A stretch of 63,841 bases of DNA, counting the filler, from Vezdaea acicularis (Eukaryota): the NCBI GenBank assembly GCA_026025075.1. It is 3 parts of 3 records of this genome, joined end to end, with 100 filler letters (N's around TTAATTAATTAA, not from the genome) between each part and the next. Parts side by side here need not be neighbours in the genome. Positions count along the whole stretch, not along the records: positions 24,569 to 48,615 come from JAPEUI010000183.1; 2 more parts are not named here. The stretch is one strand, 5' to 3'. The first letter of the stretch is position 1, and every line of letters starts with the position of its first letter. This document shows, piece by piece, positions 24,469 to 29,029 of this stretch. A program made the position numbers and the translations under genes. The notes under the pieces were generated by a model, which ran no database searches, was not told where the DNA came from, and saw only the letters and a list, made by a program, of their open reading frames with translations.

Positions 24469-24568
24469 NNNNNNNNNNNNNNNNNNNNNNNNNNNNNNNN
24501 NNNNNNNNNNNNTTAATTAATTAANNNNNNNNNNNNNNNNNNNNNNNNNNNNNNNNNNNNNNNNNNNN
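24469..24568. other. Artificial contig linker
   Basis: N44 + TTAATTAATTAA (stops in all six frames) + N44, exactly 100 nt. Confidence 0.97.
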
Positions 24569-25615
24569 GGGGGGGGGGGAGGAAGGGCTGGGGCGATCGT
24601 CGGTGGCCGTGGTCCCCTCCGTGGCTTCGGGGGCCCCCCCCTGCAACCAGCGGACGGCGATGGAGCAGCCAGACGTGGACTGTAGTGACCTTCCTGTCCG
24701 TGTCCTCCTGCGCCGGCCGTGTGTTTCTCTCTTTTCTCTTTTCTCTTTTCTTTTCTATTTCTGGGCCCGCCGTGCGAGGGGGCGGACTGGACGGGCTGGG
24801 ACGGACGGAGCGGACGGGGCGGACTGACTCTCTCTTTCGTCTCGTTCGTCTTGTCGTCCCTCGTCTTTCGTTTCTCGTCTCGCGCTCGTCTCTTCCGTGG
24901 GCCGCCAGCTGCCGGGGCAAAATCCAGATGGTCGCGCTAAGGGCCGGCGGTGGATTGGGTGTGGCCTCCGCTGCCTCGTTCTCGTCGCTTGCTCCGGGGG
25001 CCACTGGCGAGTTCGTCTGGCCGTCGCTGAACAGACAACTTTCGTCGGCACATCCCAACCTCCTCTGGCCCGTCTGCCCCCGTCCACCCTCTCTCTCTCT
25101 GTCCTTCCTCCCACTCGCCCACCCCCATTCCCTTCCCTCGCTCGTCCCACCTCCCTCCGGCCAATCTTGCGCTCACGCTGGCTGGCTCGCACACACGCTC
25201 CCTCGTCCTCGTCTTTTCCTCACCAACAACCTACGACTCCTTCCTCCCTCTTCCCTCCTCCCTCCTCCTCCTCCTCCACCACCTCCTCCCCCCAACCTGC
25301 TCGTAGAAGCACTGCCTCCCCCCTCGTCTCTCTCTCCCTCTCTTCCTCCCGTTCTTCCTTCTCCAGAACAATTTCATATTCACGAATCCCTCACTGCGCC
25401 GCGCGCGCGCGCCCCCGCCCAACTCTCTCATAAACGCCCGTTCTGCTCGTCTGCTGCAGTGCTGTTTCGTTCTGCACAAAAGTTCGCTAACAATCGATTT
25501 TCTTCGCCCGCAACCCTCCTCCCCCCCCTCCAAAGCAACTCACGGCCACGAGCGAGTACACCAGTCGAACCATCACGATTGACGATAGCGCCACGATAAT
25601 CACGACCCGACACGA

Positions 25616-26261
25616 ATGAGAAGCATCATCTCCACCGTCTGATCTTCAAGGACGAGATCCCTGGAGTCGAGCCAGCATCCATACATATACCCTAAATCCT
25701 GGCACCAACGCACCCCCCCCAGGTCTGCAGACACACGGCGAACGAATTCGGAATACTCATAGCAATCCTGCAGCTTCGCGTATTTCTTTCATTCACACCA
25801 CCGAACCCTTCGAGCCTTTCATGAGCCGACGCAACGAGATTTATACATCTACCGCCGTCCGGACGGTCAATCGCTGCTGGCACCGAATCTACAAACGTCT
25901 GACTTTCTCCCCTCCCCAAACGCTTTAACGACTTGGAAAAACGAACCAAACGACCTCTACGCTTGGGCACCTCTGTTACCGCTACGGCATTCCGATTGAT
26001 GCTCAGCACGATCTGCTCGACAGTCCATGCGTCACGGCGCGAACCTCTGACCACCGTCTGCCCTGATATTCTGCTGTGACAGTAGATCGTCCCTCTCTAC
26101 TCCCCTCGTCTCCATCACTCGAGACGACTCCACTTCCCCCGCTACCTTTACGATCACGCCTTTTACGCCTTCACGTCGAACCTGCGTATGCATCACGTCG
26201 GCCCCATCTACCTCAACGTAGCGAGTTCATGTTCACGTTCATAACGTGCAAAGCCTTCTAA
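25616..26261 (+). promoter_or_regulatory. Upstream ORFs in the long stuA leader
   Basis: Short AUG ORFs, including 25616-25642, 25821-25928 and 26229-26261, lie downstream of a long CT-rich promoter block (about 25050-25370). A. nidulans stuA is known to have a long uORF-containing leader. The TSS is not known here. Confidence 0.45.
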
Positions 26262-26950
26262 TCGGCGCACCACTGGAGCTCAGATTGACGGAACGACGAG
26301 TAACACGAGACCTCCCAATTCAGACGGGTCGACGAACAATTCCCGGGACTTGGGTATCATCTTCTGAACTCGGCGCCGCCAAAGTTTGACACTTGCAAAG
26401 TCAACGGTACCTTAACCTAGGCCGGTACAACGAGAAAGTAAGACATACAGGAACACATTACCAGGTGATCCGATCGGTCAACCCCCACCAGCTTGGAAAA
26501 AGTAGTCACCTCTTAATTGGGTACTACACATCAGCATTTCGTCGCTTAAGACTCTCACCCCCCATCACCGGAAAGCTGGAGTTACCATCTCTCTCTCAGG
26601 TTCAGACCCGAGGTCCCGTCGACGTGCCGTGGTACAATCACCATTCTGCTCAACGTCCCCTCACCTCTAGCGAGCGATTGCCTTCCCTATCCTTCACGCC
26701 GGCATACTCCAGCTCGACCTCCTACTCGTCACCTCGGCTGAACAGTCTCGGCTCGTCTTCCATCCTGAGCGGGAGCTCGCATACGTCTAATTATACGAAC
26801 GGAAACCCAGCTCACGGCTTGAAAACTCCTTCACCTACAGAAACCTCCCACGCTTTACCCGAGCAGTCATTGGCTCCTAATTCATACGCCCACCCTAATA
26901 ACACGGCGCACGGTTTGACCTACGGTCAAGATTCGTACAACCCTCACACC

Positions 26951-29029
26951 ATGAACCACAATCAGTCGTGGGATATGCATCAACCGCACCTCTCGGCAGG
27001 GCCGCAGCATGCCCCTTCAACGGCCACCACCGGCGGCATGCCACAGTACTCATATTCGCAGCCGCCATTACTACAACCGGGACCGAACACTTATGCGTCG
27101 AACCCATATCCCCAATATGGGTACGCGAATGGCATCACCTCACCTCAGCCAGCGGTGAATCCCGTTTCGGCTCCGATGGGCTCTGGGATGGGCTCCCATC
27201 TTCTCCCGCTACCTGGTTTGTTTCCATCATCGTTTGCAGCAGAGCATAGCTTCATACTGACGTTTCTCCTCTAGCCATGACCCAACAGCCCCAGCCACCG
27301 CAAGGCCAAGCGATCGTTTCTGGCGGACAATACGCACAGCAGACGATGGACACGACGGGTCAAATTGCACCTGCTGGAATGAAGCCGAGGGTCACGGCCA
27401 CTCTTTGGGAAGATGAGGGAAGCTTGTGCTTCCAAGTGGAGGCGAAGGGCGTCTGTGTGGCCCGGCGTCAAGGTAGGGCTCATCTTTTTTCACAAGTCAC
27501 AATCTTCGGAAAGGCTAACCAGGCCGTGCTCTAGATAACCACATGATAAACGGGACGAAGCTGCTAAACGTAGCGGGAATGACACGAGGGCGCCGAGACG
27601 GGATTCTTAAAAGCGAGAAGACGAGGCATGTCGTGAAAATCGGGCCAATGCATCTGAAGGGCGTTTGGTGAGTTCTTTTTTTTCCCCTTCTTTCTTTCTT
27701 CGCACAGCGAAAGGTTTCGAGAAAAGCTGCTGATTCAATTTTAGGATTCCTTTCGAGCGTGCCCTCGACTTTGCCAACAAGGAAAAAATTACAGAGTTGC
27801 TGTACCCTCTTTTCGTGCACAACATCGACAACCTGCTCTATCACCCGGCCAATCAGCGAGCAAACGTGACGATGGCGGCGGCGGAACGCCGAAAAGCTGA
27901 AGGTGCAGGTCAGCCGCAGTACCAAAACCCGCGCGTGTCTGCTCCACCCCCGCTTCATCATCATCACTCGATGCAAAATCCCATTGGTGCACACCATCCG
28001 GGACCTGCGCTAGGGTCGCACCCCGGACCGCGACCGTCTCTGGATAGGGCTCATACGTTCCCTACCCCTCCAACGAGCGCCTCAAGTCTCGGGATGGGTG
28101 GCCATGACGGTAGCTTCCAGTGGAGTGCACCAGCCATGGGGAGCATGCAGCCCAGTCAATCGCTGTCAATCGACACGGGCTTGAGTAACGCACGTTCGAT
28201 GCCGACTACGCCCGCCACCACGCCACCGGGCAGCACCATCCAGAACATGCAGCAGTACTCGGGCGGGCAGACGTACGAGAACTCACGACCGTCCATGTAC
28301 TCGGCGGCGCCGTCTCAACAGAGTCAGTACGTCGCTCAGCCGACTGTTGCCCAGCAGAACCTGGCGAGATTTGGTGCGCCGCAGGGTCAATACATCAAGA
28401 ACGAGATGGGACCTCCTTCCTCCCGCGCTCAAGACGATATCAAGCCCAACGACGGGCTGATGCCGCAGAGCCAGGGAAACGGTCAGGTGGGCCATGGGAC
28501 GGGTGAGGAGGAGGCCGAGCATGAACATGATGCAGAGTACACGCACGACGCCAGTGCTGGTTACAGCGCCAACCGTGGTCCATACAATAACTACAATGCC
28601 GCCCCGACTGTCGGAACGTTGACGGGAGAGCATCCTCACCTCTCTCCAGAGATGACGGGCTCTCCACATAATAGTGCTTCCGGCCGTGCCACACCACGCA
28701 CCGCTCCGGCTCCGGCTTCCTCCTGGGGTGCTGTGCAGCAGCCGGGTGGTTATCATACACCGCCCCGGGCTGCAGCTCCCACGACCAACCTGTACAGCGT
28801 CATGGGTGATCAACGAGGCCCAGCCGCGAACGGAGCTACTCCCAACAGCGCATATTCATATCCTTCCCAGCCGACCATGAACGGAACGAAACGCATGCGC
28901 GAGATTGATGATGATGGTGACCGAGGTTCCCGACCCGGTAGTCGAGGAGCCGGCGAAGATATGGACGCGATGAAGAGGCGCAAAATGTTCCGTGAAGGGT
29001 TAGTCTCTGGAGTGGCCGGTCTTGCCTGA
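26951..29029 (+). CDS. stuA: APSES transcription factor StuA/Asm-1
   Basis: Exons 26951-27215, 27275-27472, 27535-27667 and 27745-29029. APSES domain [79 protein letters not shown]; also RAHTFPTPP and [15 protein letters not shown] possible non-AUG start lies at 26576. Confidence 0.96.

What the first reader, a model, noticed from the sequence alone, without database searches (positions are those of the whole stretch)
26232..26953. StuA may have a hidden non-AUG (CUG)-initiated 125-aa N-terminal extension
Seen: 26232-26950 (719 nt) contains no ATG in any frame, versus about 11 expected at uniform composition. The StuA frame is stop-free from 26393 to the AUG at 26951. An in-frame CTG at 26576-26578 sits in strong context (GAAAG-CTG-G; A at -3, G at +4). 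It directly precedes a protein-like block, [28 protein letters not shown], with two LPSL motifs of the kind seen in fungal transcription factors. Known: N. crassa cpc-1 has a non-AUG-initiated N-terminal extension. I recall a similar LPS.SQV.TRGP.D.PWYNHH block in long Aspergillus StuA gene models, but this is unverified. Inference: leaky scanning yields long (CUG) and short (AUG) isoforms of a master developmental regulator.
Basis: partly seen in the sequence, partly recalled or inferred. Interest (0 to 1): 0.8.

Follow-up and report, generated by a model that had tools for sequence, protein, structure and literature searches.

The report
Conserved CUG-started long form of StuA
The fungal developmental regulator StuA in this window very probably makes a second, 125-residue-longer protein that starts at a conserved CUG codon upstream of the annotated AUG, which would explain why gene models of this well-studied gene disagree about its start.

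Summary
Window 26232-26950 has no ATG in any frame, and this is the longest ATG gap on the + strand. The StuA frame is open from 26390. CTG 26576 sits in ggaaagCTGgag.

- The 125-aa peptide is conserved in 33 proteins, 112 proteins (profile) and 51 metagenome loci.
- In 37 of 37 distinct loci the first Leu codon is CTG. Across 19 lineages ACC-GRA-AAR-CTG-GAG is invariant, third codon positions included.
- Codon periodicity begins at +6, and conservation collapses upstream of -12.
- In-frame stops lie as close as 7, 10 and 12 codons upstream. 36 of 37 loci have no in-frame ATG upstream.
- pN is below pS in 171 of 171 pairs.
- The extensions hold 2 ATGs in 7263 nt, against 161 in equal-length downstream coding sequence and 39 expected from codon-order shuffles.
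- The canonical Met is invariant.

Best reading: CUG initiation plus leaky scanning gives long and short StuA isoforms.

Long StuA models of Aspergillus, Penicillium, Onygenales, lichen fungi and Dothideomycetes contain the block behind unrelated or missing starts. My literature searches found no report of this. It is a new member of a known kind.

The parts
25616..26261 (+). Six upstream ATGs (25616, 25821, 25999, 26027, 26188, 26229). Each opens a short uORF of 7-35 codons. The last two are 26188-26244 and 26229-26261. They are presumed to lie in the long 5' leader.
   Evidence: The TSS is not mapped. One RNA(?)-library contig is identical over 25573-25722.
26232..26950 (+). ATG-free stretch in all three frames, reaching from the last uORF start to the canonical AUG.
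   Evidence: the longest ATG gap on the + strand of the window.
26387..26389 (+). Nearest in-frame stop (TGA) upstream of the CUG. There is no in-frame ATG between it and 26576.
26541..26552 (+). Moderately conserved, frame-independent nucleotide motif (GTCGCTTAAGAC here; GTCAYTCAAGRCC in many lineages) about 24-35 nt upstream of the CUG. Function unknown.
   Evidence: It is absent from the Eurotiales-like loci.
26567..26581 (+). Initiation context ACC GGA AAG CTG GAG. It is invariant as ACC-GRA-AAR-CTG-GAG in 19/19 lineages, including third codon positions.
26576..26578 (+). Proposed CUG start codon of the long StuA isoform.
   Evidence: CTG in 37/37 distinct loci and in L001/L040/L042. Other Leu codons in the same extensions are CTG in only 48/189 cases.
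26576..26950 (+). N-terminal extension of 125 codons. It is S/P/L/T-rich and predicted disordered. Conserved motifs: [23 protein letters not shown] (26576-26644), ERLPSL (26672-26689) and GLKTPSP (26816-26836).
26951..26953 (+). Canonical AUG (cacaccATGaac, A at -3), the start of the short isoform. This Met is invariant in 33/33 aligned proteins.
26951..29029 (+). Remainder of the StuA gene. Exons: 26951-27215, 27275-27472, 27535-27667, 27745-29029. Introns: 27216-27274, 27473-27534, 27668-27744 (GT..AG). The product is 626 aa from the AUG and 751 aa from the CUG. The APSES/KilA-N domain spans exons 2-4.
   Evidence: no internal stop, and end-to-end alignment to long StuA models beginning at the CUG-Leu. 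KilA-N match.

Best explanation
The gene is the StuA (APSES/KilA-N) orthologue of a Pezizomycotina fungus. I propose that its mRNA is read from two in-frame starts.

Some scanning ribosomes initiate at the CUG at 26576. It has A at -3 and G at +4, inside an invariant ACCGRAAAR-CUG-GAG context. These ribosomes make a 751-aa long isoform carrying a 125-aa, disordered, motif-bearing N-terminal extension.

The rest leak past the CUG. They meet no AUG in any frame for 375 nt and initiate at the canonical AUG at 26951, in good context. This gives the 626-aa short isoform that has been annotated since the original Aspergillus work.

Shown here:
- coding-type conservation of the extension;
- invariance of the CUG and its context;
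- the sharp 5' boundary of conservation;
- upstream in-frame stops without an AUG;
- AUG avoidance in all frames;
- invariance of the downstream AUG.

Inferred:
- that the CUG is the initiating codon, presumably decoded as Met and giving a Met-Glu N-terminus;
- that both isoforms accumulate;
- that their ratio is set by start-codon stringency and by the uORF-laden leader.
For: (1) Conservation. The extension peptide hits 33 proteins among 341 candidates, 112 proteins with a profile and 51 cluster representatives in an exhaustive HMM search.

(2) DNA loci. From 51 metagenome loci plus the window there are 37 distinct sequences. All 37 have CTG as the first Leu codon, followed by GAG. Three more loci have CTG GAT.

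(3) The context. In 19 lineages (median 61% nt identity, median pS 0.75), positions -9 to +5 are invariant, including the third codon positions at -7, -4, +2 and +5. From +6 onward no third position is invariant apart from the Trp codon TGG at +54 to +56. Upstream of -12 there is no periodicity and little conservation. Elsewhere in the same extensions, Leu is CTG in 48/189 cases, Glu is GAG in 32/69 and Thr is ACC in 63/167. The second Leu of the motif uses four different codons.

(4) No upstream AUG. In-frame stops lie 7 (L007), 10 (L003) and 12 (L043/L044) codons upstream of the CTG. 36 of 37 distinct loci have no in-frame ATG between the CTG and the nearest in-frame stop or contig end.

(5) Coding selection. 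pN<pS in 171/171 pairs, with median dN/dS 0.27 in 73 unsaturated pairs. The upstream control gives pN/pS 0.91.

(6) AUG avoidance. There are 2 ATGs in 7263 nt of extension across 19 lineages. The next equal length of coding sequence holds 161. Base shuffles give a mean of 71. Codon-order shuffles, which create only out-of-frame ATGs, give a mean of 39 and a minimum of 24 in 500. 27 of 34 complete loci have no ATG at all in the extension.

(7) The canonical AUG. The Met is invariant in 33/33 proteins and has a purine at -3 in most loci.

(8) Gene models. 47 of the 54 long models or ORF translations examined carry the block behind N-termini of 1-442 residues that are unrelated between genera, or are flagged partial. 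None of the 47 has a Met between the block and the canonical MNxxQ start. BLASTP of the window's spliced product to five long models begins at the CUG-Leu each time.

(9) Precedent. Conserved near-cognate-initiated extensions are established in Pezizomycotina for cpc-1, where -3 and +4 are named as the crucial positions (PMC5487733, passages read).
Against: There is no direct evidence of translation or of the mature mRNA.
- Only two runs held small parts of the stretch. Each is represented by contigs that cannot show starts or levels.
- The TSS is unknown.

Exceptions to AUG avoidance:
- 7 of 34 loci have one out-of-frame ATG: five at +94 and two at +316.
- L001/L040/L042 have two, at +88 and +94.

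Other complications:
- L051 has four in-frame ATGs upstream and a stop at +132, so it is a divergent or broken copy.
- In L004 and L021 an out-of-frame uORF overlaps the CUG.
- Some annotated models place a Met 1, 2 or 6 residues before the block (P. hispanicum, P. soppii, Squamulea). I could not see their DNA, so some lineages may have an AUG at or near the site.
- The lineages are related and unnamed, so counts are not independent events.
- No named Sordariomycete or Leotiomycete protein appeared among the hits. None of the ten divergent representatives checked carried a taxon name.
Confidence: 0.8

Rival explanations
1. The extension is coding but is started by an AUG in an upstream exon. 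The exon would be spliced in frame to an acceptor just 5' of the block, perhaps in one of two alternative transcripts such as stuA alpha and beta.
For: A. nidulans stuA is described as having two transcription start sites (review PMC3563288, passage). Many annotated models do graft an upstream Met onto the block. The window has a plausible donor at 26438 and AGs at 26534 and 26599. Several lineages have YAG just before the GTCAYTCAAGG motif.
Against: - No AG is conserved between -21 and -1. L009, for example, has none in its last 18 nt, and 7 of 19 lineages have AAA rather than AAG before the CTG.
- L007 has an in-frame TGA 7 codons upstream, downstream of the motif.
- The N-termini of the models are unrelated between genera, and several models are flagged partial.
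- The nearest upstream ATG in any frame is 142-947 nt away.
- In the window, the two nearest uORFs close before 26262.
- An internal exon junction would not explain the invariance of third codon positions from -9 to +5, nor the CTG-only Leu codon.
- One RNA-library contig is collinear over 26379-26529, across the 26438 donor (weak).
Confidence: 0.07
2. Only the long, CUG-started protein is made. The conserved downstream Met is simply an internal residue, so there is no short isoform from leaky scanning.
For: The evidence for CUG initiation is the same as above. The Met could be conserved for protein function.
Against: Once a ribosome is elongating, out-of-frame AUGs are harmless. Yet they are avoided about 20-fold: 2 observed against 39 expected from codon-order shuffles. 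That pattern is expected only if scanning ribosomes must reach the downstream AUG. From general knowledge, near-cognate starts capture only a minority of scanning ribosomes.
Confidence: 0.08
3. The region is untranslated leader. Its conservation and ATG depletion would reflect RNA-level or DNA-level regulatory elements.
For: Positions -9 to +5 and the -36 to -19 motif are conserved at the nucleotide level. The leader upstream is also ATG-poor, with 14 ATGs in about 5900 nt.
Against: - There is clear three-base periodicity, and pN<pS in 171/171 pairs.
- The frame stays open to the AUG in 34 of 35 loci that reach that far.
- No consensus RNA structure was found: -1.98 kcal/mol with 0 compensatory pairs.
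- The same peptide module occurs inside unrelated proteins.
Confidence: 0.03

Closest known systems
Neurospora crassa cpc-1 / Pezizomycotina CPC1 near-cognate-initiated N-terminal extensions (Ivanov et al. 2017, PMC5487733; abstract and passages read)
   Same: A fungal transcription factor with a long uORF-bearing leader. It has an in-frame conserved coding extension without an AUG, and conserved near-cognate codons with -3/+4 context.
   Different: CPC1 has several candidate near-cognates of partial conservation; its CUG is kept in 73 of 100 species. It also has AUG uORFs inside the extended region. StuA has a single CUG kept in every locus seen, a sharp conservation boundary, and an AUG-free run to the main AUG that fits simple leaky scanning. 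CPC1 has in vitro and ribosome-profiling support; StuA has none yet.
Human c-MYC CUG-initiated long isoform, and other CUG/AUG dual-start regulators (recalled; a 2026 bioRxiv title and abstract opening on c-myc non-AUG initiation were seen in the listing only)
   Same: One mRNA carries an upstream in-frame CUG and a downstream AUG. This gives long and short forms of a transcription factor, with a ratio that responds to initiation stringency.
   Different: The MYC extension is short (about 15 aa, recalled). The proteins are unrelated.
A. nidulans brlA alpha/beta (review PMC3563288, passage read)
   Same: A conidiation regulator made as two proteins that differ by an N-terminal extension (23 aa), with a uORF controlling translation.
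   Different: The brlA isoforms come from two transcripts and AUG starts, not from a near-cognate codon on one mRNA.
A. nidulans stuA leader control (Wu and Miller 1997; abstract recalled, paper not held)
   Same: The same gene family. Long leaders, two promoters, and translational control by a micro-ORF.
   Different: As recalled, that work assumes a single protein from the AUG. A CUG-started extension is not part of that description.

Membership tests
StuA/APSES transcription factor orthologue | APSES (KilA-N, PF04383) DNA-binding domain | tested here: met
   The 43-aa exon-3 piece matches KilA-N at 23.4 bits. That is just under the 23.8-bit whole-protein cut-off because only a fragment was given. 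The full-length homologue P0015 scores 35.5 bits; the spliced product aligns end to end (48-57% identity) with named StuA models.
StuA/APSES transcription factor orthologue | Collinear similarity over the whole protein to named StuA proteins, including the canonical MNxxQxYMDxH start region | tested here: met
Conserved non-AUG-initiated N-terminal extension | In-frame coding-type conservation upstream of the annotated AUG | tested here: met
   pN<pS in 171/171 pairs, median dN/dS 0.27; periodicity.
Conserved non-AUG-initiated N-terminal extension | No in-frame AUG between the upstream in-frame stop and the conserved region | tested here: met
   met in 36 of 37 distinct loci, the exception being L051. 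Met in the window between 26390 and 26575.
Conserved non-AUG-initiated N-terminal extension | A conserved near-cognate codon in good context (-3 purine, +4 G) at the 5' edge of conservation | tested here: met
   CTG in all loci, A at -3 in 19/19 and G at +4 in 19/19, with conservation ending at -12.
Conserved non-AUG-initiated N-terminal extension | The start codon lies in the mature mRNA (downstream of the TSS and not spliced out) | tested here: inconclusive
   only one 151-nt RNA-library contig lies over 26379-26529. Nothing covers the CTG itself.
Conserved non-AUG-initiated N-terminal extension | Direct evidence of initiation (initiation-site profiling, N-terminal peptide, mutational reporter) | not testable with these tools
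   No such data were reachable. Searches for stuA with ribosome profiling and with near-cognate found nothing relevant.
Leaky-scanning dual-isoform mRNA | No AUG in any frame between the weak upstream start and a conserved downstream AUG in good context | tested here: met
   The window has 0 ATGs. 27 of 34 loci have 0 and 7 of 34 have 1. Across the 19 lineages there are 2 in total, against 39 expected.

The most novel reading that the evidence does not exclude
The StuA long/short ratio acts as a translational switch.

The CUG-started extension carries a portable peptide module of about 45 aa: ELPSISxVxxRGPVDxxWY...RLPxL. The same module also occurs inside a GATA zinc-finger protein and in another protein family. 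It is followed by a conserved GLKTPSP proline-directed site.

How often the module is included would be set by start-codon stringency and by reinitiation after the leader uORFs. Nutrient or stress signalling through the initiation factors would then decide which form of this master regulator is made, and so influence developmental competence across much of Pezizomycotina.
Probability: 0.25. Interest if true: 0.85.

Novelty: new member of a known kind. Interest (0 to 1): 0.68.

Why it matters
StuA has been a model developmental regulator for three decades. Its orthologues control sporulation, dimorphism, secondary metabolism and virulence traits in many fungi.

If a conserved long isoform exists, three things follow.
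- Many genome annotations of this gene are wrong in different ways: short models, models with invented first exons, and 'partial' models.
- Constructs that begin at the AUG or place a tag there, and promoter swaps that cut the leader, would remove or alter one isoform without this being noticed.
- The conserved motifs of the extension become candidates for partner binding or phosphorylation.

It also adds a clean example to the few documented near-cognate-initiated regulators in filamentous fungi: a single, fully conserved CUG.

Tried and rejected
**RNA evidence.** The look-up of sequencing runs gave only two runs, each with a 0.07 share. Laying them gave a few short contigs, and none lies over the CTG. 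This neither supports nor refutes the reading. The first read-laying run failed on N-flanked pieces and was repeated on a range without them.

**Downstream or flanking RNA structure.** I looked for a structure that might enhance CUG use. RNAalifold on -45 to +75 in 19 lineages gave -1.98 kcal/mol and no compensatory pair. Rejected.

**Folded domain.** AlphaFold2 with the 19-sequence alignment gave mean pLDDT 53 and no secondary structure. The extension is best treated as disordered, so no fold search was run. Pfam finds no family in it.

**Conserved uORF peptide.** All-against-all comparison of uORF peptides within 1.5 kb upstream in the 19 lineages gave only matches between close relatives.

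**Naming distant homologues.** The aim was to learn whether Sordariomycetes or Leotiomycetes have the block. The listing of cluster members on ten divergent representatives returned no taxon names. This remains open.

**Earlier notes of this scan.** None were found.

**Literature.** I searched for:
- stuA with non-AUG by word start; stuA also matches unrelated words such as Stuart there, and none of the 20 papers listed of 147 concerned StuA;
- stuA with near-cognate, whole word, 0 papers;
- non-AUG, N-terminal extension and Aspergillus, 9 papers, none on StuA;
- stuA with start codon, 26 papers; no title or abstract opening among the 25 listed concerns alternative initiation, and I checked passages in two of them, PMC8396895 and PMC12077801;
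- APSES with non-AUG terms; none of the 15 papers listed contained 'APSES';
- stuA with ribosome profiling, 1 irrelevant paper.

PMC5487733 and PMC7049704 do not mention stuA, asm-1 or APSES in their main text. Their supplements were not read. One search failed on a term format. Wu and Miller 1997 is not held. Subscription-journal papers are not covered, so 'not in print' holds only for these searches.
Full report
**1. The observation**

Window 26232-26950 contains no ATG in any frame. The flanking ATGs are at 26229 and 26951. This 722-nt gap is the longest on the + strand of the window; the next longest is 688 nt. The stretch's own base composition predicts 7.8 ATGs, its dinucleotides predict 3.8, and the window's mean ATG density predicts about 11.

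The StuA reading frame has TGA at 26387-26389 and is open from 26390 through the ATG at 26951 to the first intron. CTG 26576-26578 lies in ggaaagCTGgag, with A at -3 and G at +4. It is followed by [38 protein letters not shown]. No ORF of 80 codons or more lies on the opposite strand here.

**2. The gene**

Joining exons 26576-27215, 27275-27472, 27535-27667 and 27745-29029 gives an open frame of 751 codons from the CUG, or 626 from the AUG. All three introns have GT..AG ends.

The product aligns end to end, at 48-57% identity, with long StuA models of Thelocarpon, Polytolypa, Phyllosticta and Aspergillus awamori and an unnamed 879-aa protein. In each case the alignment begins at the CUG-encoded Leu. 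The exon-3 piece and the homologues match the KilA-N/APSES family. The extension matches no Pfam family.

**3. Is the extension coding and conserved?**

The 125-aa peptide alone finds 33 proteins among 341 candidates; one of them is the window's own ORF. A profile of 19 extensions finds 112 proteins. An exhaustive HMM search finds 51 cluster representatives.

The named hits are StuA models from these groups:
- many Aspergillus and Penicillium species, Paracoccidioides, Polytolypa and an unnamed Onygenales fungus;
- Teloschistales lichens, Sarcosagium and Thelocarpon;
- Phylliscum (Lichinomycetes);
- Phyllosticta and Eremomyces (Dothideomycetes).

No named Sordariomycete or Leotiomycete appeared. 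Ten divergent representatives carried no taxon names. The depth of the feature beyond these classes is therefore open.

**4. DNA-level tests**

One scan of metagenome contigs returned 51 loci. Together with the window, 48 sequences could be anchored on T-x-K-L-E-L-P-S, and 37 of these are distinct.

*The start codon and its context*
- All 37 distinct sequences have CTG for the first Leu, followed by GAG.
- Three further loci (L001, L040, L042) have CTG GAT.
- L030 starts inside the block, at a contig end.
- I reduced the set to 19 lineages (below 93% identity over the first 135 nt, median 61%).
- In those lineages positions -9 to +5 read ACC GRA AAR CTG GAG without exception, including the third codon positions at -7, -4, +2 and +5.
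- From +6 onward, first and second codon positions are conserved and third positions vary. The only invariant third position there belongs to the Trp codon TGG at +54 to +56.
- Upstream of -12 there is neither periodicity nor much conservation.
- As internal controls, other Leu codons in the same extensions are CTG in 48 of 189 cases, Glu is GAG in 32 of 69, and Thr is ACC in 63 of 167. The second Leu of the motif uses CTC, CTG, CTA and TTA.

*Upstream in-frame stops and ATGs*
- In-frame stops lie 7 (L007), 10 (L003) and 12 (L043, L044) codons upstream of the CTG.
- 36 of 37 distinct loci have no in-frame ATG between the CTG and the nearest in-frame stop or the contig end.
- The exception is L051. 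It has four upstream in-frame ATGs and a stop 132 nt into the extension, so it looks like a divergent or broken copy.

*Reading through to the canonical AUG*
- 34 of the 37 reach an in-frame ATG without a stop.
- That ATG opens the canonical MNxxQ start, except in L028, L029 and L041, where it lies eight codons upstream of that start.
- Two loci run off their contigs while still open.

*Codon substitution pattern*
- pN is below pS in 171 of 171 lineage pairs.
- Median dN/dS is 0.27 in the 73 pairs that are not saturated.
- The same frame upstream (-150 to -13) gives pN/pS of 0.91.

**5. Leaky scanning**

Across the 19 lineages, the 7263 nt between the CTG and the canonical ATG hold 2 ATGs. For comparison:

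| Comparison | ATG count |
|---|---|
| Extensions, 19 lineages (7263 nt) | 2 |
| Next equal length of coding sequence | 161 |
| Base shuffles, mean | 71 |
| Codon-order shuffles (out-of-frame ATGs only), mean of 500 | 39 (minimum 24) |

Other arrangements of the same three letters are common in the extensions, from 23 (TAG) to 81 (GAT), and CAT occurs 113 times.

27 of 34 complete loci have no ATG in the extension and seven have one, out of frame. L001/L040/L042 have two.

The canonical Met is invariant in 33 of 33 aligned proteins. In the window it has A at -3. An elongating ribosome is indifferent to out-of-frame AUGs. Their avoidance therefore implies that scanning ribosomes cross this region to reach the AUG, which points to two isoforms from one mRNA.

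The leader upstream of the CTG is also ATG-poor, with 14 ATGs in about 5900 nt. The nearest upstream ATG in any frame is 142-947 nt away.

**6. Gene models**

I examined 54 long models or ORF translations. 47 contain the L-E/D-L-P-S/T block. It is preceded by 1 to 442 residues that are unrelated between genera.
- Several models are flagged partial and have no start: A. saccharolyticus, A. uvarum, Eremomyces, P. nucicola, P. cinerascens and Caloplaca.
- None of the 47 has a Met between the block and the canonical start, which lies 92-139 residues on.
- Of the other seven, two have KLALPS. Three join an invented first exon at VHTRGP: A. terreus, P. lagena and A. ochraceoroseus. Two are truncated.
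- The Penicillium models beginning MRLLHH resemble a short uORF (MRLLHASL, 364 nt upstream) in the Penicillium-like locus L034. This suggests that uORF starts were grafted on.
- A few models have a Met 1, 2 or 6 residues before the block: P. hispanicum, P. soppii and Squamulea. I could not see their DNA. If these Met codons are contiguous with the block, an AUG has arisen at the same place in those species, which would itself mark the initiation site.

**7. Rival readings**

*A spliced upstream AUG exon.* This is not excluded for every lineage, but it fits poorly.
- There is no conserved AG or pyrimidine tract between -21 and -1.
- L007 has a stop 7 codons upstream.
- An internal junction would not explain a Leu codon fixed as CTG, nor fixed third positions around it.
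- In the window, an intron from 26438 to 26534 would only shorten the leader, because there is no ATG between 26232 and 26437 and the two nearest uORFs close by 26261.
- An acceptor at 26599 would delete conserved codons.
- One RNA-library contig is collinear over 26379-26529, which is weak evidence.

*A purely non-coding explanation.* This is contradicted by the codon analyses.

**8. What the extension may do (inference)**

It is rich in Ser, Pro, Leu and Thr and is predicted to be disordered, with mean pLDDT 53 and no secondary structure. It carries three conserved motifs:
- LELPSISQVxTRGPVDxPWYNHH at the N-terminus;
- RLPxL;
- GLKTPSP, a proline-directed phosphorylation-type site.

The first two motifs also occur together inside a GATA zinc-finger protein (P0143) and in a 584-aa protein family without Pfam domains (P0149, where the motif reads M-ELPSIS). 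This points to a portable peptide module, probably a docking site.

If the CUG is decoded by initiator tRNA, the N-terminus is Met-Glu (Met-Asp in three loci). From general knowledge, that is a class of N-termini usually acetylated.

**9. Comparison with what is known**

The mechanism is the one documented for Pezizomycotina cpc-1 (PMC5487733, passages read) and, from recall, for c-MYC and other CUG/AUG regulators. The StuA case differs in having one fully conserved CUG and an AUG-free run to the main AUG.

The searches listed under Tried and rejected found no paper that links StuA or APSES proteins with non-AUG initiation. Subscription journals and supplements were not covered.

**10. Verdict**

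I put 0.8 on a CUG-started long isoform with leaky scanning to the AUG. It is a new member of a known kind, on a prominent gene, and is directly testable.

Noticed in passing
P0143 (residues about 179-228) and P0149 (about 340-390): The ELPSISxVHxRxPVDxWY...RLPxL module of the StuA extension also occurs inside a protein with a C-terminal GATA zinc finger (P0143; Pfam GATA at 42.8 bits). It also occurs in a 584-aa family without Pfam domains (P0149; 15 cluster members). It therefore looks like a portable peptide module.
   Followed up: partly
window 25060-25420: A long pyrimidine-rich (CT) tract followed by a (CG)n run. It lies about 1.2 kb upstream of the CUG and could mark the core promoter or TSS region of a leader longer than 1 kb. 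The TSS is not mapped.
   Followed up: no
window 26541-26552; loci at about -36 to -19 from the CTG: A frame-independent nucleotide motif, GTCAYTCAAGRCC (GTCGCTTAAGAC in the window). It is shared by many but not all lineages and is often preceded by YAG. It may be a leader-intron acceptor region or a regulatory element.
   Followed up: partly
L004 (-142 to +47) and L021 (-244, -202 and -193 to +47): In two lineages an AUG-started uORF in another frame overlaps the CUG and ends 47 nt into the extension. This would divert some ribosomes past the CUG. The similarity between the two peptides mostly reflects the shared overlap region.
   Followed up: partly
L034 at -364; proteins P0060, P0061, P0070-P0072: Penicillium StuA models start MRLLHHPSLHLSH. 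A Penicillium-like locus has a short uORF, MRLLHASL, 364 nt upstream of the CTG. The annotated N-termini may be uORF starts grafted on by gene callers.
   Followed up: partly
L051 (4009 onward): A copy with the CTG context (acg gga aag CTG GAG). It has four in-frame upstream ATGs, divergence after PWY and a stop at +132. It may be a pseudogene, a paralogue, or an intron not recognised here.
   Followed up: no
window 24513 onward and nearby: The window holds 176 N in all, including runs near 24513-24524. This is an assembly gap upstream of the stuA promoter region.
   Followed up: no
window 26379-26529 and 25573-25722: A soil metatranscriptome contig (1 mismatch) and a contig from a second run (identical) lie on the presumed leader. 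This is a hint that the organism or a very close relative occurs in those samples and that the leader may be transcribed. DNA carry-over cannot be excluded.
   Followed up: partly
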